Positions 2,342-14,831 of a DNA stretch of 14,831 nt are shown piece after piece. Both the position numbers and the translations under genes were made by a program. Within the stretch, counting starts at the first letter, position 1; every line of letters begins with the position of its first letter. The DNA comes from a virus (lineage: Duplodnaviria > Heunggongvirae > Uroviricota > Caudoviricetes), in the IMG/VR virus record IMGVR_UViG_2537561713_000005; one strand, given 5' to 3'. The notes beneath the pieces are model-generated. The model ran no database searches. It saw only the letters and a program-made list of their open reading frames with translations, and was not told the DNA's origin.

Positions 2342-2886
2342 GCCTCCATCGCTTTATCCGGTTTGTCGGTGTTACTGCCCTGACCGTTCTCTCTGTGACG
2401 ATGCCCGTTATAGGCAAGCCGCATCGCTGACATGGTAGTGCCGCTGGAGTCGCACAGGTCTTTCACCTGTCCTGTCACTTCCAGGTCCATTTCAAAACGT
2501 GCTTTAGGTGAATTGCGAAACGTGATCGTTTTACCTGCACCGTCCACCACGATCCCCTCCCGGGTCAGCGTCACAGACTGCCCCTGATCGTCATAGACAG
2601 CCACCTCACCCGTCTGCAACCCTTTCAGGCGGTAGCGCCGGTCCGACACCGTAACAACCACCGCATGAGAACGGTCGCCATCCGGAAACAACACCACCGC
2701 TTCCGCGCCGCTGTTTGCCCTTGCGGTAAAACCGTAGGGTTCAAGATGTTCAACCCCGGCTTTGGGTTCACCGGCAATCAGGGACACATCCACGGTCTGA
2801 CATTTCGTGGCGGCACTGATGCTTTTCACCACTGCCCGCGCAATCAGGCCGAGAAGTTGTCGCTGCATGGCTTCAATCGTCCTCAT
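2338..2886 (-). CDS. Baseplate assembly protein V / spike (Mu gp45-like)
   Basis: 182-aa ORF; ATGA start/stop overlap with the hub gene; position matches Mu gp45. Confidence 0.6.
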   Translation of the reverse strand: MRTIEAMQRQLLGLIARAVVKSISAATKCQTVDVSLIAGEPKAGVEHLEPYGFTARANSGAEAVVLFPDGDRSHAVVVTVSDRRYRLKGLQTGEVAVYDDQGQSVTLTREGIVVDGAGKTITFRNSPKARFEMDLEVTGQVKDLCDSSGTTMSAMRLAYNGHRHRENGQGSNTDKPDKAMEA

Positions 2887-3965
2887 CAGAACGGGTCCTC
2901 CTGTACTCTGGCTTTTTTCTTTTTCCGCGCGCCGGGGGCTTCGGGTTCAGGCAGATAAGCATCAGGCGGGCCGACACGGATTTCCGTCAGGGTGCCGTTC
3001 TGGTCCTGAGTAAACGTGACTTCCGAGACAAGCAGTTCGGTATTGTCGAAACCACAGACTGGATCGAAGACAATCACCCGCTGGTTGGGCTGCCACAGCG
3101 TACCGTTACCCTGTCGCCAGCCCTGCACCACATAGGTGGTTTCATCCGTCCGCGCCGCCCGTTGTCGGGCTTCAAAGTCAGCACGCGCAATACAGCCTGC
3201 CCCCGTGGCCTGCCCTGTCTGCCTGATATACATCGGACGGTAACGGGCAATAAATGCGTCCTCTGTGCGGGCCCGCAGCGCGGTGGTGGTGACCTCACCG
3301 AAATCATCGTCGTTTCCGGCACGCTGCCCCGCCACCTGGTAAACAGAAAACCGCTCCCGGATACTCTTCTCCGTATCACAGGAAAGGATGTTTTCCCCAA
3401 GTACCAGCGCGGTATGTGCCCGCGTTGAGCCAATACCGCCAATCACCAGCCTGCCGTGCGGATCGTCGTAAGCCAGCGCCTGCTGCTGACCGAGTATTTT
3501 GTTGATAACCTCAATCACCGTTTCACCGTGATCAGGCTGAACATCAGGAATAACACCCGACGGCGCACCGCTGTTCACCACCTCAATGCCGAAAGGCGCA
3601 GCAAGCGCCTGCGCAATCTGCACCAGCGAGCGTCCGTTAAACTGTGTCGGTTCGGCTGCACAGTCAATCAGGTCAGCCGTCAGACTACGTCCGGCAATAC
3701 CGGTGCTGACCGAACGGGCATCGTAACGAACGGGAGTCGCCTCCACCCAGCCGGTGATCACCAGCTCATCACCAATCAGCACTTCCACTTTTGAACCGTT
3801 TTTAATGCGCGGCTGAAGCGTGGTGATACCCTCATCTCCCGGCCACTGGCGAGTGATCTCCACACTGAAATCCCGCGCCAGCCGTTCAATACCGGCACCG
3901 ATGCGCACCGATGTCCAGCCATTCCACTCCCGGCCATTTACCCGTAGCGTGACATTGTCGTTCAT
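2886..3965 (-). CDS. Baseplate hub protein (Mu gpP / late control D-like)
   Basis: 359-aa ORF following the N-like gene with overlapping stop/start; synteny with Mu N-P. Confidence 0.6.
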   Translation of the reverse strand: MNDNVTLRVNGREWNGWTSVRIGAGIERLARDFSVEITRQWPGDEGITTLQPRIKNGSKVEVLIGDELVITGWVEATPVRYDARSVSTGIAGRSLTADLIDCAAEPTQFNGRSLVQIAQALAAPFGIEVVNSGAPSGVIPDVQPDHGETVIEVINKILGQQQALAYDDPHGRLVIGGIGSTRAHTALVLGENILSCDTEKSIRERFSVYQVAGQRAGNDDDFGEVTTTALRARTEDAFIARYRPMYIRQTGQATGAGCIARADFEARQRAARTDETTYVVQGWRQGNGTLWQPNQRVIVFDPVCGFDNTELLVSEVTFTQDQNGTLTEIRVGPPDAYLPEPEAPGARKKKKARVQEDPF

Positions 3966-5349: not shown

Positions 5350-7185
5350 TTACCTGCCAAAGCGCGTATAGCCAACATCATGGCTGACATCAAAACCGCT
5401 GGATCGCGTTTCCATAACCCGCATACCCGGAGGCGAATTCACAAAAGAGACCTTGATCTCACCATCAACTTTTGGCGCAGAAGCTTTGTTAATCATGAAG
5501 GGATTCGGGCCTGTGGCACCGGAGGCGTTGTTTGACTGAGCCGGATCTACCGCCTGATAAGGTGTGTATCCCCGTGCCGGTATTCCCGTCCCATAAGCAT
5601 CATAAGCACCCGCGCCCCACTGCGCAGAGTTAATGGCATCGACCGTGTCACCGGAACTGTCGGTAAACCACTCAATAATTGGCTTCAGTTTGTCCCACAT
5701 ATCCTGAAACCACTTAACAACCGGTCCCCAGTTATTGATTACCATCCCCAGCGGCGACCAGGCAAAAACCTTCTTCAGAAGTTCCCAGCCAGCCTCAAAA
5801 TAAGGACCAATGGTTTCCCAGAGCTTCTTGAAATAAGGTCCGACAACATCCCAGTTAGTGATAATTAATCCCGCAGCCAGGGCTATCGCCGTCGCAATCA
5901 TTCCAATCGGCGTCATCGACATGATCCTGCTGACAATACTGATGGCACCGCCAACGCCCATCAATCCCAGTTTCAGAATCGCAAGACCGGCAGCAAGCCC
6001 GACGACGCCGCGAATAACCCGGGGATTTTCATCCGCAAACTTCGTGAATTTTTCCCCTAACTCCCCCAGCCATTGCGTGATATTTTTGGCGTCACCAGAA
6101 AATGCGCCGCCAATAGCCGCAAGGCCGTTAGTTGCGGTCCCCGTCATTGCCTCCCACAGGTTGGACAGCGTACCAAGCTGGGCCTGAACACGTTTATTCA
6201 GGCTGGCCTGTTTATTCATCTTCTGCTGGATCTGATCGTAGCCATCCTTTCCTTTATCGATTAGTGCATTGACCACCTGAAGGGTTTCGGCATCATCACC
6301 AAATATTGCCTTAAGTACACCTGTTCGCTTAACGTCGGTCAGTTTTCGCAGCTTTGCCAGTTGCCTGAACATGTTATCAAGACCGCCAAAACTTCCTTTG
6401 CCGTCAGTAAAATCGAGCTGTACCCCGAGTTTCTGGCGGGCCATGATTTTATTGACGTCCCTGATTTTCTTAACGCTTAATCCGGACTGGATAACTTTTC
6501 GCAGGGCGTTACCTGCCGACTCCCCGTTCATCCCCATCTGATCCATCATGACGCTGATGGGGGCAAGGCTCTGTGCAGCCTGAAGACCGTCCTTGTTCAC
6601 CATCTTCAGAACAGAGCTGGTTTTAGTGAAGAAGGACAACATGTTGGTATCGTCAACACCCAGATAAAACGCCTTCTGGATAGTGTCGAACAGCCCCATC
6701 ATGTCTTCTGACGCCGTTCCGGTAGCATCCTGCATCTTTGCAGCAAACTCAGCAGCCGCTTCCGGTGTTTTTTTCAGTTGTACCGCAAGATAAGCTGTCG
6801 CTTTACCCACACCGCCAAGAATGTTTTCTGCCGGGATCCCCTGACGCACCAGCATCTGCATCATGTTCTGGAAATCAGCCGTTGTACCGGGTAGCTGGTT
6901 ACCCAGGCCAATAGCCAGTTTATTGATGTCCTGAAAGCTCTTTCCAACCTCGCCGTTCGCATCCATCATGGCGACTTTCAGCCCGGTGGCGGCGTTTTCC
7001 TGATCGGCATAAGATTTCAGGGAAAGCGTCAGACCCGCTGCCAGTCCGCCACCAAGCGCCAGCCCACCCTGTGACGCTTCTTCCGCCTGGCGTTTAAATC
7101 CCCGGATTTTCTTTTGCATTTTCGACAGCGCGGGAGAAAGCCTGTCGACACCGGTGATCAACGCCTTAAGCTCAAATTCCGCCAT
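5350..7185 (-). CDS. Tail tape measure protein
   Basis: 611-aa ORF; Ala/Gly/Gln-rich helical N-terminal half and hydrophobic glycine-rich central segment (…GVVGLAAGLAILKLGLMGVGGAISIV…); sits after the frameshifted chaperone pair. Confidence 0.8.
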   Translation of the reverse strand: MAEFELKALITGVDRLSPALSKMQKKIRGFKRQAEEASQGGLALGGGLAAGLTLSLKSYADQENAATGLKVAMMDANGEVGKSFQDINKLAIGLGNQLPGTTADFQNMMQMLVRQGIPAENILGGVGKATAYLAVQLKKTPEAAAEFAAKMQDATGTASEDMMGLFDTIQKAFYLGVDDTNMLSFFTKTSSVLKMVNKDGLQAAQSLAPISVMMDQMGMNGESAGNALRKVIQSGLSVKKIRDVNKIMARQKLGVQLDFTDGKGSFGGLDNMFRQLAKLRKLTDVKRTGVLKAIFGDDAETLQVVNALIDKGKDGYDQIQQKMNKQASLNKRVQAQLGTLSNLWEAMTGTATNGLAAIGGAFSGDAKNITQWLGELGEKFTKFADENPRVIRGVVGLAAGLAILKLGLMGVGGAISIVSRIMSMTPIGMIATAIALAAGLIITNWDVVGPYFKKLWETIGPYFEAGWELLKKVFAWSPLGMVINNWGPVVKWFQDMWDKLKPIIEWFTDSSGDTVDAINSAQWGAGAYDAYGTGIPARGYTPYQAVDPAQSNNASGATGPNPFMINKASAPKVDGEIKVSFVNSPPGMRVMETRSSGFDVSHDVGYTRFGR

Positions 7186-7596
7186 GTGTGCGTTTCTCCT
7201 GCTCTATCCTGTTTGCCTGACTGACCAGCAAGGGAATTTCACTGATCGGCATATTCAGCAATTCGAAAGGATTAATGCGCCAGTAGCTGGCGCAGTCAAA
7301 GAAGCGATCAGTGAGGTATTCAGCCGTCAGGCCTGGAGGAAAAAACCAGCCACAAGCCACGCCGCTGCATTCAGGTCTGCCGGAGACATCTGGTCGACAG
7401 AGCTTTGCGGCACTTTCGCCAGCCGCACAATGTATTTCGACACCACATGCGCCAGAAGTCTGACTGACTCATCCTGATTCATCTGGTAGGGATACCCCAG
7501 CTCGCGGACATCCTTCCCGGTGGGTTCATCAAACTCCAGTACGGAGAGTGTCTCGCCATGAGCAGTAATCGGTTTCTTTAACTCAAGCTCTTTCAT
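7172..7596 (-). CDS. Tail assembly chaperone, long product by -1 programmed frameshift
   Basis: The 62-aa ORF (7172..7360) is in the -1 frame relative to the 89-aa ORF and overlaps its last 34 nt; after a slip on TTTTTTC the next codons are CCT CCA GGC (…FFPPGLTAEY…). The extension ends 11 nt inside the tape measure start. Confidence 0.5.
7327..7596 (-). CDS. Tail assembly chaperone (short, in-frame product)
   Basis: 89-aa ORF between tube and tape measure genes; ends at a T_TTT_TTC slippery heptamer. Confidence 0.6.
   Translation of the reverse strand: MKELELKKPITAHGETLSVLEFDEPTGKDVRELGYPYQMNQDESVRLLAHVVSKYIVRLAKVPQSSVDQMSPADLNAAAWLVAGFFLQA
7339..7345 (-). other. Slippery heptanucleotide T_TTT_TTC (-1 programmed ribosomal frameshift site)
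   Basis: Minus-strand GCT GGT TTT TTC CTC in the zero frame; X_XXY_YYZ pattern placed exactly at the frame overlap. Confidence 0.5.
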
Positions 7597-7952
7597 TACT
7601 GGTAATCCCCTTCTTCACCGTGGAACTCAAGATCAACCGTGCCTTCTTCGGCATTATGGTTCGCTTCGCCGTGCAGCCAGGCAGACGACAGTACATAGAC
7701 CTGACCGTTCGCCAGCTCGGCAGTGATGGTCATCTCATCAGACGAGGTGATTTTGCTTACCGGAAAATTCTTCGGCACCTTGAAGGTCCCTTTGACATAA
7801 GGCGCACGGTGAGTTTCCTTGCGGTCCACTGAACCGTCCAGGCCGATGATGTCATCGTTAACCGTTTTGTTCATGGGCACCTCAATGCCGCCGGTCAGCG
7901 ATAGCTGCTGACCGTCAATTTTGAAATAACAGGTTCCCCCGATACGGGCCAT
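7596..7952 (-). CDS. Tail tube protein (Mu gpM-like)
   Basis: 118-aa ORF immediately after the sheath gene, with stop/start overlap on both sides. Confidence 0.7.
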   Translation of the reverse strand: MARIGGTCYFKIDGQQLSLTGGIEVPMNKTVNDDIIGLDGSVDRKETHRAPYVKGTFKVPKNFPVSKITSSDEMTITAELANGQVYVLSSAWLHGEANHNAEEGTVDLEFHGEEGDYQ

Positions 7953-9448
7953 TATGCAGACTCCTCTGAATACTGAAGACGGAACTGATTAACCACGGCA
8001 AAGACACGCAGCTGGTTAACATAGTCAGGCGGGAACAGCGTGTTCAGGCGGTTCGGATCGCTGGCATCACGCTCCACAACCAGGTACTGCTTAAACAGTT
8101 CGTAGTTTTCCACGATCCCCGCACGCTCAAGCTGACGGTAGGTTGCCAGCAGTTCCCCTTTGATCACCGCCGGGGTGACAATCGCCTGACCGGGACCAAA
8201 GCGGGTACCGTCACTGGCAAGCTTGTGACGCCCGTACTTACTGGTAATGACGGATTTCAGTTTGCGCAGTACATACGCGCTGGTATGCAGCGTCTCACTG
8301 TCGAGGTAACTGTTATCCGCAACCCCGTAAGCGTTTTTCCTGTACGTGGTGACATCACGCTGAATGCGTAGTACCCCGCTTTCGACATACGCCGTTGCCA
8401 CGCCATGAGACAGCAGGGTCTGTTGTTCGGTCATCGTGAACCGTTTCCCCTTCGGCGCAGGCAGCATACCCACCAGCTCACCGGTCTGCGTGGGACGTGC
8501 CGGATCGTTGCGGATAAACACCGCTGCGCGGGCGGTACGGCTTGCCGCCAGCTCGTCGGCAGGCGTCTGGGTCTCTTTTTCGTACCCCGCCAGGGTAATG
8601 TGCTGCTGGTTAAACTGGTCACCTGCGGTCACCAGTTCTGACAGCGTGCCGATCTTTGCCGTATACACATGACCATACAGCTGACGCGCATAGCTCCAGC
8701 GACCGCTGGTATCGTTCATCTCGGTCACCAGCGTGTTAACGGAGGCCGTGTCGTTGAACGGCAGGCCGATATAATCAAACGGCTCATCCGCCATTGCAGC
8801 CACCGCGCCGGTGAGAACCGGAGCACCCGTTCCGGCGGTACCCGTCGCCACGGCAATCTGTACGCCCGCTGGCAGCACTTCGCCCCCACCAAAGCCGTAG
8901 TAATTGAGGCTGACAGGAATTTCATTCCCACAAAGCCCCTTATGACGCGCGGTCAGTGTGACCACGCCTGCCAAAGATGAAGCCGTAAACGGCAGGGTCG
9001 GAACGGCATTGATGGCATCCTGGATACTGCTGGCAATCATCGTGACGTTATCGCCGTTAGTCACCGGTGCCTGCACGCGGGTACGTCCTACATACACATT
9101 CACCGTGCCGGTTTCGGTTGCCGCCCCGGTCACCGTCAGCGTAACTGTTGCCGCCGCACCTGTGGATTCAGGAACGGCAATCACATACAGCTCGCCAAAC
9201 GGGTCAGTCTGGCGATAAGCCTCGACCATACGCGCCAGCTGACTTCCCGCACCACAAATCTGGCGTGCATAGTCTGCCGACGACATCAGTACCAGACTGT
9301 TGGCAACAATCTCTGCACCGTTATTGGCATGACCAATCAGCAGCGATGCTCCGCTGTCCTGTGCAGTATTCGCCGCCTGGTTATCCATTTCCGCATAAAA
9401 CAACGGAACCAGCGTATTCGACGGAATGGTGTTAAAGCTTATCGTCAT
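7952..9448 (-). CDS. Contractile tail sheath protein (Mu gpL-like)
   Basis: 498-aa ORF followed by the tube gene; size and order as in Mu and P2. Confidence 0.8.
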   Translation of the reverse strand: MTISFNTIPSNTLVPLFYAEMDNQAANTAQDSGASLLIGHANNGAEIVANSLVLMSSADYARQICGAGSQLARMVEAYRQTDPFGELYVIAVPESTGAAATVTLTVTGAATETGTVNVYVGRTRVQAPVTNGDNVTMIASSIQDAINAVPTLPFTASSLAGVVTLTARHKGLCGNEIPVSLNYYGFGGGEVLPAGVQIAVATGTAGTGAPVLTGAVAAMADEPFDYIGLPFNDTASVNTLVTEMNDTSGRWSYARQLYGHVYTAKIGTLSELVTAGDQFNQQHITLAGYEKETQTPADELAASRTARAAVFIRNDPARPTQTGELVGMLPAPKGKRFTMTEQQTLLSHGVATAYVESGVLRIQRDVTTYRKNAYGVADNSYLDSETLHTSAYVLRKLKSVITSKYGRHKLASDGTRFGPGQAIVTPAVIKGELLATYRQLERAGIVENYELFKQYLVVERDASDPNRLNTLFPPDYVNQLRVFAVVNQFRLQYSEESA

Positions 9449-12697: not shown

Positions 12698-13300
12698 TTA
12701 CGCGTTAAGAAGGGTCAGGACGCGTTCACGCGCCATACGTTGATTAATGGCTTTCTGTAGCGCGCCGCTGTTGCGCGCCTCCTGCCATGCTTTCATGGAG
12801 CGAACAGCCGAGTCAGCCTCCTGATAGGCAGGATATGTCACAGGACTGACATCCAGCAGACGGGAAAAGCGGGTTATCTCGCGAATAACAACCCCGTCCT
12901 CATCCTGATACCACTCCTCGCCGTCACGGGCGACACGGAAAGCAAAAGATGACTGGTTAATATCTCCACGTTGCATCGGGGCCAGCACCAGATCACGAAT
13001 GGTCTGTGTCTCCGGAGCCTGGATGTCATAGCGCAATCCGCGCTCATCAACTGAAAGATTCAGCGTGCCTGCTGCACTACGCCCAAGAATAAAATTAGGA
13101 TCGTGGTTAAACAGTGCGCGTACATCATCACCAAGCACATCGTCAAAAGCGCCGGGCCGGATGATTTCGCGGAATGAACCAAATATCAGCTCAGAACGAC
13201 AGTCAAACACCGATCCATAACCGATAATGTGCGCAGGGTTATCGTCATGCCGCTCAGCACGCACCTCACCGCTGTAACAACGGATTTCACGGTCATTCAT
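12698..13300 (-). CDS. Prohead maturation protease, HK97 family
   Basis: Track ORF runs to 13357; I prefer ATG 13300 (MNDREIRCYSGEV…), which overlaps the portal stop as ATGAATGA and has GAGGG upstream. Body motifs (…HIIGYGSVFDCRSELIFGSFREIIRPGAFDDVL…NHDPNFILGRS…) are protease-like. Confidence 0.8.
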   Translation of the reverse strand: MNDREIRCYSGEVRAERHDDNPAHIIGYGSVFDCRSELIFGSFREIIRPGAFDDVLGDDVRALFNHDPNFILGRSAAGTLNLSVDERGLRYDIQAPETQTIRDLVLAPMQRGDINQSSFAFRVARDGEEWYQDEDGVVIREITRFSRLLDVSPVTYPAYQEADSAVRSMKAWQEARNSGALQKAINQRMARERVLTLLNA

Positions 13301-13901
13301 TGGTTTTTCCCTCATCATTTTTTGGGGGCTTAAAATCTCCTGCCGGGTTAGCAGCATTCACGCTTACCAGCATCTCATCCAGCCCTTCAACCGGATTCAT
13401 ATCCTCGAATGCGCGGGCTTCATTACGGCTCATCCATCCATCGGTAATAGCGAAGTGATAGAATTGCGCGCGCTCCTGCGGAGTTCCGCGTAAAAGCCCC
13501 GTCAGATTGAACCTAACGTAATACCCGGCGGCTAACTCAGCGCGGGTAAACAAGCGACGGTTAAGCTCCTGCTCCCAGTTCGTTACCCACGGCATCATCG
13601 TGTAGCGGACAAACTGAATCGCCTGCGCAGAAATATTGGAGAAGGTGGCTTTTTCGAGGTCATTAATCATGTGCGCAGGAATATTGAAAATACCGGCAAT
13701 CATTGAACGGTTCAGTTTCATCATGTCAATGATCTGAGCGTCAACTGGCGACACAGTCAGTGCCTTGTAATCCAGTCGGGACTGGCCTGGCTTGTATTGC
13801 TTCCAGCCCTCGCTTTTGTGGCTTTCGCAATAACCTGACGGGTCAGTCGTGGTATGGCGGCAGCCGCGAACTCGGCAGGCTTTTGGGGTTCGTGGTGGCA
13901 T
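13293..13901 (-). pseudogene. Chimeric ORF: HNH-endonuclease-like N-terminus (~45 aa) joined in frame to the portal C-terminal ~165 aa; likely deletion remnant
   Basis: ATG 13901 with GGAG 5 nt upstream; begins MPPRTPKACRVRGCRHTTTDPSGYCESH (Cx4GC…GYCxxH zinc-ribbon start of terminase-associated phage HNH endonucleases), then …GLLRGTPQERAQFYHFAITDGWMSRNEARAFEDMNPVEG…, typical of the HK97-family portal C-terminus. Far too short for a portal. Confidence 0.6.
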
Positions 13902-14020
13902 ATGTACTCCAATGAAGAAGCTACCGACATAGCCTCCTCCATTCGTCGTGAAACTATTTTCATCTACCCAGTAATGAATTCTTTGAAGAGTTGTAATCAA
14001 TACAACTCGCTAATGGAGAG

Positions 14021-14044
14021 GCTTGTCTCACACGTGAGACAAGC
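14021..14044. promoter_or_regulatory. Perfect inverted repeat GCTTGTCTCA-CACG-TGAGACAAGC with T-rich 3' flank
   Basis: 10-11 bp arms centred on CACGTG, followed on the plus strand by TTCCTGTTTGATTT; lies in the divergent intergenic region. Confidence 0.3.
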
Positions 14045-14123
14045 TTCCTGTTTGATTTACTGGACACTATAGAAGGACAGAATGCCTTCCTCACTCGAAT
14101 CACATCAATTAAGGAGGTTCAAC

Positions 14124-14246
14124 ATGTTTCATTCCACAAGTCATCAGGCTGTAATTATGGCAGCATCAGTTTGTGCCACAGACCTTTTCCGCTTCACTTT
14201 GAGCCTGATTCATTTCTACCTGACCGGCTCGCCTCTATCTTTTTAA
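14124..14246 (+). CDS. Hypothetical small protein (40 aa), hydrophobic
   Basis: Not in the track (under length cutoff). AAGGAGG 6 nt upstream of ATG 14124. My translation: MFHSTSHQAVIMAASVCATDLFRFTLSLIHFYLTGSPLSF; stop TAA at 14244..14246. Confidence 0.4.
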   Translation: MFHSTSHQAVIMAASVCATDLFRFTLSLIHFYLTGSPLSF

Positions 14247-14426
14247 TCCCCGCTTTATCCAAATTGCATTGCCAGAATGCCGACAACAGACTGACATTCA
14301 AATCCTGACTACCTCCAATAGTCTGACCGTACACCTATATAGTTTTAATTTTCATCAATCCATTTAACTATCGTTTAATTGTTGTCACATAGGATTCTGC
14401 CGTTTTTAACAATGCAGGATAATAAG

Positions 14427-14720
14427 ATGAAAAAAATGTTATTTTCTGCCGCTCTGGCAATGCTTATTACAGGATGTGCTCAACAGACGTTTACTGTTGG
14501 AAACAAACCGACAGCAGTAACACCAAAGGAAACCATCACCCATCATTTCTTCGTTTCGGGAATTGGACAGGAGAAAACTGTTGATGCAGCCAAAATTTGT
14601 GGCGGCGCAGAAAATGTGGTTAAAACAGAAACCCAGCAAACATTCGTAAATGGATTGCTCGGTTTTATTACTTTAGGCATTTATACTCCGCTGGAAGCGC
14701 GGGTGTATTGCTCACAATAA
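14427..14720 (+). CDS. bor: Bor family outer-membrane lipoprotein (lambda Bor / Iss-like)
   Basis: 97 aa from ATG 14427 (AGGA 7 nt upstream): MKKMLFSAALAMLITGCAQQTFTV…EARVYCSQ, with signal peptide and lipobox LITG|C; near-identical to lambda Bor as I recall it. The track start at 14379 is an upstream in-frame extension. Confidence 0.9.
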   Translation: MKKMLFSAALAMLITGCAQQTFTVGNKPTAVTPKETITHHFFVSGIGQEKTVDAAKICGGAENVVKTETQQTFVNGLLGFITLGIYTPLEARVYCSQ

Positions 14721-14730
14721 TTGCATGAGT

Positions 14731-14748
14731 TGCCCATCGATATGGGCA
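14731..14748. terminator. Hairpin between the convergent bor and Rz 3' ends
   Basis: TGCCCAT-cgat-ATGGGCA, 7-bp stem, in the 31-nt gap between the two stop codons; no clear U tract on either side. Confidence 0.25.
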
Positions 14749-14751
14749 GCG

Positions 14752-14831
14752 CTATCTGCACTGCTCATTAATATACTTCTGGGTTCCTTCCAGTTGTTTT
14801 TGCATAGTGATCAGCCTCTCTCTGAGGGTGA
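14752..14831 (-). CDS. Rz: Rz-like i-spanin, C-terminal 25 codons (partial, starts beyond window end)
   Basis: Minus-strand frame reads …TLRERLITMQKQLEGTQKYINEQCR then TAG at 14754..14752, matching the lambda Rz C-terminus as I recall it; convergent with bor as in lambda. Confidence 0.7.
   Translation of the reverse strand, partial: TLRERLITMQKQLEGTQKYINEQCR

What the first reader, a model, noticed from the sequence alone, without database searches (positions are those of the whole stretch)
7172..7596. Programmed -1 frameshift in the tail assembly chaperone gene
The 89-codon chaperone ORF ends just after a T_TTT_TTC heptamer. The -1 frame is open from exactly there for 56 more codons and ends inside the tape measure start. 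This is the conserved chaperone arrangement upstream of tape measure genes (lambda G/GT, P2 E/E+E').
Basis: partly seen in the sequence, partly recalled or inferred. Interest (0 to 1): 0.45.

Follow-up and report, generated by a model that had tools for sequence, protein, structure and literature searches.

The report
Tail chaperone −1 frameshift site (P2-type)
This is almost certainly the standard "slippery" ribosome frameshift site that long-tailed phages use to make a short and a long tail-assembly chaperone from one gene; here it sits in an SfV-like prophage where databases do not annotate it, so it is ordinary but real.

Summary
An 89-codon ORF (7596..7327) carries an in-phase T_TTT_TTC (7345..7339) three codons before its stop. 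A −1 shift there adds 55 residues and ends at 7172, 14 nt inside the tape-measure gene (start 7185). One detail is wrong: the −1 frame is already open 41 codons upstream.

The window is about 99% identical to Shigella phage SfV. The ORF is Pfam PF10109 (P2 gpE family) and lies between the tube and tape-measure genes.

Main evidence for a programmed shift:
- 142 of 145 distinct relatives, plus 8 further Enterobacterales homologues, keep NNT‑TTT‑TTN.
- The −1 ORF nearly always ends at the tape-measure start.
- Protein conservation switches from frame 0 to frame −1 at the heptamer.
- T6 persists against GC-rich codon usage, while the preceding residue varies.
- 9 of 15 lineages have no −1 start codon nearby.
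- A profile of the fusions aligns with P2 E+E′ across both halves.

I found no canonical stimulator. An 8-bp hairpin 44 nt downstream is under synonymous constraint and is unexplained. No product was observed, and this copy is a packaging-defective prophage.

The parts
7327..7596 (-). Zero-frame tail assembly chaperone ORF (89 aa plus TGA), the gpE/'G'-like product
   Evidence: Pfam PF10109 Phage_TAC_7, E=1.9e-16, 60.3 bits against a cut-off of 25. PHROG 166 'tail protein'. SD duplex -7.9 kcal/mol upstream of the ATG.
7339..7345 (-). Slippery heptamer T_TTT_TTC, in phase (codons GGT TTT TTC)
   Evidence: NNT-TTT-TTN is conserved in 142/145 distinct relatives and in 8/8 further Enterobacterales homologues.
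7172..7339 (-). -1-frame extension (55 aa plus TGA), the E'/'T'-like domain, read only after the slip; predicted fusion product 141 aa
   Evidence: Conserved at protein level across lineages, with the motif A-x-(F/Y)-W-(R/K)-x-(N/D)-P. Aligns with P2 E' by hhalign. Held in PHROGs as orphan family 32181.
7327..7329 (-). Zero-frame stop TGA, 9 nt after the heptamer
7172..7185 (-). 14-nt overlap between the end of the -1 ORF (TGA 7174..7172) and the tape-measure start (ATG 7185..7183)
   Evidence: The equivalent overlap is 8 nt in SfV and in P2.
5350..7185 (-). Tape measure protein gene (611 aa)
   Evidence: PF10145, E=1.3e-26. SD duplex -7.4 kcal/mol.
7596..7952 (-). Tail tube gene (118 aa), immediately upstream; by analogy with lambda gpV, the presumed partner of the -1 domain
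   Evidence: PF10618, E=3.3e-33.
7276..7294 (-). Conserved 8-bp hairpin UGCGCCAG-CUA-CUGGCGCA, starting 44 nt after the heptamer; role unknown and not a canonical stimulator
   Evidence: It is the only RNAalifold consensus structure in 11 Enterobacterales relatives. Synonymous diversity is 0 at 4/4 stem codons against 0/24 invariant elsewhere, Fisher p=4.9e-5.

Best explanation
This is a programmed -1 ribosomal frameshift of the P2 E/E+E' type in the tail assembly chaperone gene of an SfV-like contractile-tailed prophage. Most ribosomes translate 7596..7327 and release the 89-aa chaperone. A minority slip with tRNA-Phe in both the P site (UUU) and the A site (UUC): both tRNAs re-pair one base back on U_UUU_UU. 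Those ribosomes continue in the -1 frame to 7172 and make a 141-aa fusion with the same N-terminal 86 residues plus a 55-residue C-terminal domain. By homology with P2 E/E+E' and analogy with lambda G/GT, the shared domain coats the tape measure protein and the extension recruits the tube protein. The slip frequency would then fix the ratio of the two products. Shown here: the anatomy, the family membership, and selection on the nucleotides and on the -1 reading frame. Inferred: that slippage is ribosomal, its efficiency, and the binding partners.
For: (1) Identity and position. The ORF hits PF10109 above the gathering score and lies between the tube (PF10618) and tape-measure (PF10145) genes. 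The region differs from infectious phage SfV at 3 of 425 nt, with an identical junction.
(2) Heptamer conservation. In-phase T_TTT_TTN is present in 142/145 distinct sequences (12 clusters at 80% nt identity). These are phages or prophages of Escherichia/Shigella, Edwardsiella, Pantoea, Salmonella, Burkholderia, Pseudomonas, Stutzerimonas and Bordetella. It is also present in 8/8 further homologues from Kosakonia, Lelliottia, Citrobacter, Atlantibacter, Enterobacter, Leclercia, Cronobacter and Hamiltonella.
(3) -1 ORF geometry. The extension runs 30-51 codons past the zero-frame stop. Apart from five of the 145 rows, it ends within -14 to +2 nt of the next long ORF.
(4) Frame switch. Between lineage groups the mean BLOSUM62 local score is 57 in frame 0 against 25-28 in the other frames upstream of the heptamer. 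Downstream it is 42 in frame -1 against 23-24.
(5) Nucleotide-level selection. The residue before Phe-Phe varies (G/R/N/S/P/D) but its third base is always T. Background P(NNT-TTT) is 0.02-0.07 in the GC-rich lineages and 0.12-0.20 in enterics. Adjacent Ala/Val codons vary synonymously while GGT TTT TTC does not.
(6) No independent start. 9 of 15 lineage representatives have no ATG/GTG/TTG in the -1 frame near the heptamer. The window's only candidate (GTG 7360) has an SD duplex of +0.4 kcal/mol, against -7.4 to -8.6 for the tube, chaperone and TMP starts.
(7) Homology to a proven case. The fusion profile aligns with P2 E+E' over 122 columns spanning both halves (hhalign probability 94.9%, E=4.8e-8), with the slip sites at equivalent columns. 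P2's RefSeq record annotates the -1 frameshift, 91/142-aa products and an 8-nt overlap with gene T (PMC3091744).
(8) Heptamer competence. U_UU.U_UU.C belongs to the efficient H_HH.U_UU.Y class in E. coli and is measurably shifty: 0.12% alone, 0.89% and 7.6% with stimulators (PMC4066793).
Against: No protein, ribosome-profiling or reporter evidence exists for this locus or, as far as I could find, for any SfV-group phage. No canonical stimulator was detected. The 49 nt after the heptamer fold no better than shuffles (z=+0.63). No proximal structure is conserved. There is no upstream SD-like element in this lineage. Alone, UUUUUUC gave only 0.12% in a reporter, so the real yield is unknown. Three of 145 distinct sequences, all singletons in the SfV group, have GGG TTT TTC or GGG TTT TTT CTC, which breaks the perfect heptamer. 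The extension does not hit Pfam PF06528 (P2 GpE') on its own. This particular copy sits in a prophage lacking terminase and half its portal gene, so it may not be expressed or under selection here.
Confidence: 0.88

Rival explanations
1. Transcriptional slippage. RNA polymerase stutters on the T6 run and makes a fraction of mRNAs with U7. Standard translation of those mRNAs yields the same 141-aa protein, with the identical GFFPPG junction.
For: The site is a homopolymer, and some lineages carry T7 (SfIV, ST64B, phiP27). Bacteria do use slippage productively at some sites (PMC5009743). Nothing I could run separates the two mechanisms directly, and the peptide would be identical.
Against: Efficient bacterial RNAP slippage is reported for runs of about 9 A/T. 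It is undetectable at T5C5 without a nascent-RNA hairpin immediately 5' of the run (PMC5009743). No significant or conserved upstream hairpin exists here. The run is held at 6-7 T in every lineage and never lengthens to 8-9, which is what selection for slippage would favour. The homologous P2 site is annotated and cited as a translational frameshift.
Confidence: 0.06
2. Two separate genes. The -1 ORF is an independently initiated small protein of about 60-62 aa starting at GTG 7360, as some annotations treat it.
For: the ORF listing finds a 62-aa GTG ORF at 7360..7172. GenBank ON470584 and two of the eight gene-called contigs call a separate 60-aa 'hypothetical protein' there, and a third (Hamiltonella) calls a 52-aa one. 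PHROGs holds it as family 32181.
Against: There is no SD before GTG 7360: +0.4 kcal/mol against -7.4 to -8.6 for real neighbouring starts. 9 of 15 lineage representatives have no start codon at all in the -1 frame near the heptamer, yet they conserve the -1 protein. Independent initiation would not explain selection for NNT-TTT-TTN.
Confidence: 0.03
3. Coincidence. The T-run merely encodes a conserved Phe-Phe, and the -1 ORF is non-functional open frame.
For: Phe-Phe is conserved in most lineages. The -1 frame is open well upstream of the site in the window (41 codons), which shows that open non-coding frames do occur here.
Against: The -1 extension is conserved as protein down to about 35-40% identity, and the frame switch occurs at the heptamer. 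The -1 stop tracks the TMP start. TTT and NNT persist against strong GC3 bias. The fusion is homologous to P2 E+E'.
Confidence: 0.02

Closest known systems
Phage P2 gpE / gpE+E' (FETUD operon; Christie et al. 2002; Pfam PF10109 + PF06528)
   Same: Same Pfam chaperone family (PF10109) and a contractile tail. The gene lies directly upstream of the tape-measure gene. A T6-based heptamer sits at the homologous column at the end of the chaperone domain, and the shift is -1. Product sizes are 91/142 aa in P2 and 89/141 aa here. The fusion stop overlaps the tape-measure start. No proximal RNA structure is present.
   Different: The heptamer is T_TTT_TTC rather than T_TTT_TTG. The zero-frame stop is 9 nt after the heptamer rather than 18 nt. 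Pairwise sequence similarity is not significant (BLASTP E=0.55), and the extension does not reach PF06528, so homology is seen only with profiles. The surrounding tail module is Mu/SfV-like, not P2-like. A conserved distal hairpin is present here.
Phage lambda gpG / gpGT (Levin 1993; Xu, Hendrix & Duda 2004, 2013, 2014)
   Same: The logic is the same. A chaperone gene lies between the major tail gene and the tape-measure gene, with a low-level -1 shift near its 3' end. The two products share an N-terminus and a fixed ratio is needed for tail assembly (PMC5009743).
   Different: No detectable sequence relationship was tested or found. Lambda uses G_GGA_AAG with tRNA-Lys, and it has a non-contractile tail. 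This is an analogy of mechanism, not family membership.
Phage Mu gp41 (PF23746), reported -2 frameshift
   Same: The neighbouring genes here are Mu-type: the sheath is annotated as similar to Mu gpL, and the DNA-circulation and gp44-48 baseplate homologues give Mu-family Pfam hits. Mu gp41 occupies the same position.
   Different: Mu gp41 is 144 aa in frame 0, belongs to PF23746 and only grazes PF10109 (24.7 bits against a cut-off of 25). It has no BLASTP hit to the window's protein, and it is reported to shift -2. Here the +1/-2 frame closes after 2 codons.
dnaX / IS3-IS911 type -1 frameshift cassettes
   Same: An X_XXY_YYZ tandem-slippage heptamer. U_UU.U_UU.C is itself used by some IS elements.
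   Different: Those cassettes rely on an upstream SD and/or a hairpin or pseudoknot 5-9 nt downstream. Neither is detectable here.

Membership tests
Frameshifted tail assembly chaperone pair (lambda G/GT paradigm, Xu et al. 2004) | Gene lies between the major tail/tube gene and the tape measure gene | tested here: met
   Tube 7952..7596 (PF10618), chaperone 7596..7327, TMP 7185..5350 (PF10145).
Frameshifted tail assembly chaperone pair (lambda G/GT paradigm, Xu et al. 2004) | Second ORF overlaps the 3' end of the first in another frame and lacks its own start signal | tested here: met
   The -1 ORF runs to 7172. There is no SD at the only candidate start, and 9/15 lineages have no start codon there.
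Frameshifted tail assembly chaperone pair (lambda G/GT paradigm, Xu et al. 2004) | Slippery sequence in the overlap, conserved among relatives | tested here: met
   T_TTT_TTN in 142/145 plus 8/8 sequences. Selection beyond the amino-acid requirement is shown.
Frameshifted tail assembly chaperone pair (lambda G/GT paradigm, Xu et al. 2004) | Fusion protein actually produced at a low fixed ratio; both products required for tail assembly; neither present in virions | not testable with these tools
   Needs expression, mass spectrometry and phage genetics.
P2 gpE / E+E' family | N-terminal domain matches Pfam PF10109 (Phage_TAC_7) above the gathering score | tested here: met
   60.3 bits against a cut-off of 25, E=1.9e-16, profile 2-78 of 79. 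P2 E+E' itself scores 47.8 bits.
P2 gpE / E+E' family | -1 extension matches Pfam PF06528 (Phage_P2_GpE, the E' part) | tested here: not met
   No PF06528 hit for the 55-aa extension at E<=10. Relative PBb002 hits weakly (E=0.064, 13.2 bits against a cut-off of 23). Profile-profile alignment does cover E', with the shared W-x-x-P-x-EL motif (hhalign probability 94.9%). It is therefore a distant relative of E', outside the curated model.
P2 gpE / E+E' family | T6-based heptamer at the end of the chaperone domain, -1 direction, fusion ending at the tape-measure start | tested here: met
   P2: TTTTTTG, fusion stop overlaps T by 8 nt. Window: TTTTTTC, 14-nt overlap. The slip sites are at equivalent hhalign columns.
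Mu gp41-type chaperone (-2 frameshift) | Pfam PF23746 (Gp41_Mu) match | tested here: not met
   Only PF10109 is reported for the window protein. Mu gp41 hits PF23746 at 119.5 bits. BLASTP between the window protein and Mu gp41 gives no hit.
Mu gp41-type chaperone (-2 frameshift) | Productive -2 (+1) frame extension | tested here: not met
   The +1 frame closes 2 codons past the zero-frame stop.
Stimulated -1 PRF cassette (dnaX / IS3 / IS911 type) | Stable hairpin or pseudoknot 5-9 nt downstream of the heptamer | tested here: not met
   z=+0.63 for the first 49 nt, with only a 4-bp GGCC/GGCU stem that is not conserved. No Rfam match in the window.
Stimulated -1 PRF cassette (dnaX / IS3 / IS911 type) | SD-like element 6-17 nt upstream | tested here: not met
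   Window duplex energy is -2.6 kcal/mol, and 34% of windows in the gene are at least as strong. Some other lineages and P2 do have one, so it is not a family feature.

The most novel reading that the evidence does not exclude
The 8-bp hairpin at 7294..7276, starting 44 nt after the heptamer, is under synonymous-site constraint in Enterobacterales relatives. It could be a non-canonical, long-spacer modulator of the frameshift, setting the ratio of short to long chaperone. Alternatively it could modulate mRNA fate in the sparsely translated 140-nt stretch before the tape-measure gene. If it affects shifting, that would help explain how P2-type T6 sites, which alone shift only about 0.1% in reporters, reach the several-percent levels reported for P2 without any proximal structure.
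Probability: 0.12. Interest if true: 0.45.

Novelty: new member of a known kind. Interest (0 to 1): 0.18.

Why it matters
Scientifically this adds little, because conserved chaperone frameshifting upstream of tape-measure genes has been textbook phage biology since 2004.

The practical value is in annotation. This locus occurs in about 1,085 of 5,426 complete E. coli genomes. GenBank and RefSeq annotate only the 89-aa product and leave a 141-nt gap, or call the extension an orphan hypothetical protein. PHROGs also carries the extension as a family of unknown function. Those entries should be a ribosomal_slippage join encoding a 139-141 aa tail assembly protein.

A second minor point is that a tail module otherwise Mu-like uses a P2-type −1 chaperone rather than Mu's −2 gp41 type. 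This illustrates mosaic exchange even within the tail assembly core.

Tried and rejected
(1) Rosetta-stone test. I searched the 5.8-billion-protein database with the 141-aa fusion for natural single-ORF fusions. Three full-length hits (P0001-P0003) turned out to be artefacts. They are singleton, low-coverage or fragmented contigs with scrambled junctions and broken neighbouring genes, and the frame changes are not at the T-run. The test is uninformative.

(2) Downstream stimulator. Single-sequence folds, 16 lineage representatives and RNAalifold on 11 relatives show no conserved proximal structure. Burkholderia and Pseudomonas lineages have their own hairpins 7-8 nt downstream, but these are not shared with this lineage.

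(3) Upstream SD stimulator: absent here and not conserved.

(4) Upstream nascent-RNA hairpin for transcriptional slippage: nothing beyond shuffle level.

(5) Rfam: no family in the window.

(6) Sequence search of the PDB with the fusion profile gave nothing meaningful. NCBIfam gave no hit.

I did not pursue it, because a monomer model would not decide the mechanism.

The Bordetella query found nothing in viral contigs.

(9) The primary papers (Xu et al. 2004, Christie et al. 2002, and Allison et al. 2002 on SfV) are not held in the library. I therefore could not check whether SfV's site was already listed there.
Full report
**What is there**

All genes in the window run on the minus strand. 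ORF 7596..7327 encodes 89 aa. Its last codons are GCT GGT TTT TTC CTC CAG GCC TGA. An X_XXY_YYZ heptamer T_TTT_TTC therefore lies in phase at 7345..7339, 9 nt before the stop.

A −1 slip there reads CCT CCA GGC CTG ACG… (PPGLTAEY…) for 55 codons to TGA at 7174..7172. That is 14 nt past the ATG (7185) of the next gene. The predicted fusion is 141 aa.

The −1 frame is open from 7468, 41 codons upstream, not "from exactly there".

Locally the site is not a chance feature.
- Of 5 in-phase slippery heptamers in 4,305 coding codons of the window, it is the only one near a gene's end.
- It is the only one whose −1 frame gives a longer product.
- P(≥55 open codons) is 0.05.
- The +1 frame closes after 2 codons.

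**Context**

The 89-aa protein is Pfam PF10109 (Phage_TAC_7, "E, or 41 or 14"; 60.3 bits against a cut-off of 25).
- Upstream are the tail tube (PF10618) and sheath genes.
- Downstream are the tape measure gene (PF10145), a DNA-circulation gene, and homologues of the Mu gp44–48 baseplate genes.
- Further upstream are HK97-type head genes.

The region is about 99% identical to Shigella phage SfV and its relatives SfI, SfII and SKA5. It differs from SfV at 3 of 425 nt, with an identical junction. It is 100% identical to prophages of E. coli O157:H7, and the locus occurs in 1,085 of 5,426 complete E. coli genomes.

None of the GenBank or RefSeq records inspected annotates a frameshift. RefSeq leaves the 141 nt before the tape-measure gene empty. 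One GenBank record and some gene callers call the −1 ORF a separate 60-aa hypothetical protein. PHROGs holds it as family 32181, "unknown function".

tblastn with the hypothetical fusion matched in two frames in relatives down to about 40% identity. I assembled 198 loci, giving 145 distinct DNA sequences in 12 clusters at 80% nt identity. They come from the phage database and IMG/VR.
- 142 of 145 have an in-phase T_TTT_TTN at the same alignment position.
- In every sequence where the −1 stop could be read, the −1 extension runs 30–51 codons past the zero-frame stop.
- Apart from five rows that came out at −62, the extension ends within −14 to +2 nt of the next long ORF.

Eight additional Enterobacterales homologues (70–85% aa identity, including Hamiltonella) all keep GGT TTT TTC. 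They have a 53–55 aa extension, while flanking Ala and Val codons vary synonymously.

Across lineage groups, protein conservation switches frame at the heptamer.
- Upstream, the score is 57 in frame 0 against 25–28 in the other frames.
- Downstream, it is 42 in frame −1 against 23–24.

The fusion proteins align end to end. The FF junction is invariant and the extension carries a conserved A‑x‑(F/Y)‑W‑(R/K)‑x‑(N/D)‑P motif.

Selection acts on nucleotides, not only on Phe-Phe.
- The preceding residue varies (G/R/N/S/P/D) but always ends in T.
- TTT and NNT are kept in GC-rich Pseudomonas, Burkholderia and Stutzerimonas lineages.
- In those lineages the background P(NNT‑TTT) is 0.02–0.07.

**Rivals**

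*Independent initiation* is excluded for the family.
- 9 of 15 lineage representatives have no start codon in the −1 frame near the heptamer.
- The window's only candidate (GTG 7360) has no Shine-Dalgarno: +0.4 kcal/mol, against −7.4 to −8.6 for the tube, chaperone and TMP starts.

*Transcriptional slippage* cannot be formally excluded, because it would give the same peptide. It is nevertheless unlikely.
- Efficient bacterial RNAP slippage needs runs of about 9.
- Shorter motifs need a nascent hairpin immediately 5′ of the run (PMC5009743). None is present or conserved here.
- The run stays at 6–7 T in every lineage.

**Relation to known systems**

P2 makes E (91 aa) and E+E′ (142 aa) by a −1 shift at TTTTTTG, and the fusion stop overlaps gene T by 8 nt.
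- Pairwise BLASTP between the window's fusion and P2 E+E′ is not significant (E=0.55).
- A profile of the fusions aligns with P2 E+E′ over 122 columns covering both halves, with the slip sites at equivalent columns (hhalign probability 94.9%, E=4.8e-8).
- The Bordetella relative even carries P2's FHWPPSEL.
- The extension alone does not reach Pfam PF06528, so it is a distant E′ relative outside the curated model.

The surrounding tail genes are Mu-like, but the chaperone is not of Mu type.
- Mu gp41 is 144 aa, belongs to PF23746 and shows no BLASTP similarity to the window protein.
- It is reported to shift −2.

Lambda G/GT is the mechanistic paradigm. There G binds the tape measure, the T domain recruits the tube protein, and the product ratio matters. 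It is an analogue, not a family member.

**Efficiency and stimulators**

In E. coli reporters, UUUUUUC shifts 0.12% alone, 0.89% with the IS911 stimulators and 7.6% with the IS3 pseudoknot. P2's UUUUUUG gives 0.12%, 0.25% and 0.77% (PMC4066793, Table S3). Frameshifting in P2 and related phages is nevertheless reported to be 2–3-fold more efficient than lambda's (reference identified).

I found no canonical stimulator here.
- The first 49 nt fold at z=+0.63, with only a non-conserved 4-bp stem.
- There is no upstream SD.
- There is no Rfam hit.

The yield at this site is therefore unknown. It is plausibly somewhere between about 0.1% and several percent.

**Unexplained extra**

The only consensus structure in 11 Enterobacterales relatives is an 8-bp hairpin, UGCGCCAG‑(C/U)UA‑CUGGCGCA, at 7294..7276, starting 44 nt after the heptamer.
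- All four degenerate stem codons (TGC, GCC, TAC, CGC) are invariant.
- The loop codon and all 24 other degenerate codons examined vary (Fisher p=4.9e-5).
- Hamiltonella has one compensatory and one wobble change, but three broken pairs.

The hairpin is too far from the heptamer to act as a canonical roadblock, it is absent in the other lineages, and its role is open.

**Caveats**

All evidence is comparative, and no product was observed. Three singleton SfV-group sequences have an imperfect heptamer, GGG TTT TTC twice and GGG TTT TTT CTC once. These may be sequencing errors, decay, or tolerated weaker sites.

This particular copy is a defective prophage. A ~3.46 kb deletion fuses an HNH endonuclease N-terminus to the C-terminal third of the portal protein and removes the terminase. 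The site may therefore be silent here, even though all tail ORFs are intact.

**Verdict**

This is a P2 E/E+E′-type programmed −1 frameshift site. It is an unannotated member of a well-known kind, its main value is for annotation, and a conserved distal hairpin is a minor open question.

Noticed in passing
window 7276..7294 (- strand): An 8-bp hairpin UGCGCCAG-CUA-CUGGCGCA starts 44 nt after the heptamer. It is the only RNAalifold consensus structure in 11 Enterobacterales relatives. All 4 degenerate stem codons are invariant, while the loop codon and 24/24 other degenerate codons vary (p=4.9e-5). Its function is unknown, and it lies too far from the heptamer for a canonical frameshift stimulator.
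   Followed up: partly
window ~13775..14000 (junction), ORF 14000..13293 (- strand): The prophage is packaging-defective. Relative to the intact O157:H7 FRIK944 prophage, about 3.46 kb is deleted. The deletion fuses the N-terminus of an HNH endonuclease gene to the C-terminal third of the portal gene (Pfam portal profile positions 200-321 only) and removes the terminase. No complete E. coli genome in the collection carries this junction in one piece.
   Followed up: partly
window 13780..14831: This stretch matches a region annotated in O157:H7 genomes as iss (serum-survival lipoprotein), HNH endonuclease and rzpD. It is the lysis/cos-proximal end of the prophage, now abutting the truncated portal gene.
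   Followed up: no
L032, L063, L069 (IMG/VR copies of the same locus), junction about 250 nt into the chaperone gene: Three of 80 near-identical copies have an imperfect heptamer: GGG TTT TTC twice and GGG TTT TTT CTC once. All other features are intact. They may be sequencing errors, decaying prophages, or tolerated weaker sites (U_UU.C is the second-best slippery tetramer in E. coli).
   Followed up: partly
window 7172..7185 versus SfV (L001): The window's -1 ORF ends 6 nt later than in SfV and most relatives (GGA instead of TGA). This gives ...THGGI* (141 aa, 14-nt overlap with the tape-measure gene) instead of ...THG* (139 aa, 8-nt overlap).
   Followed up: yes
L008 (Burkholderia phage BgVeeders33) and L188, 7-8 nt after their heptamers: The Burkholderia lineage has its own proximal hairpin at canonical spacing. 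The two sequences differ by an apparent compensatory change (GGCGUC-UCA-GACGCC against GGCGUG-CGA-CACGCC). This suggests lineage-specific stimulators that the SfV lineage lacks.
   Followed up: no
P0001-P0003 (loci L204-L206): Database proteins that look like single-frame chaperone fusions are assembly or sequencing artefacts. They come from singleton, low-coverage or fragmented contigs, and their indels lie at places other than the T-run.
   Followed up: yes
window 2886..3965 (- strand) versus L203 3302..4365: The gp44/P-like baseplate gene is an intact 359-aa ORF in the window. RefSeq annotates it as a frameshifted pseudogene in the otherwise more complete O157:H7 FRIK944 prophage. Different copies of this prophage are thus decaying in different places.
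   Followed up: no
window 7172..7360 (- strand); PHROG 32181; ON470584 CDS 9199..9381: The -1 extension circulates in databases as an independent 'hypothetical protein' or a family of unknown function. RefSeq PGAP leaves the stretch unannotated. This is a systematic annotation gap for a locus present in about 20% of complete E. coli genomes.
   Followed up: yes
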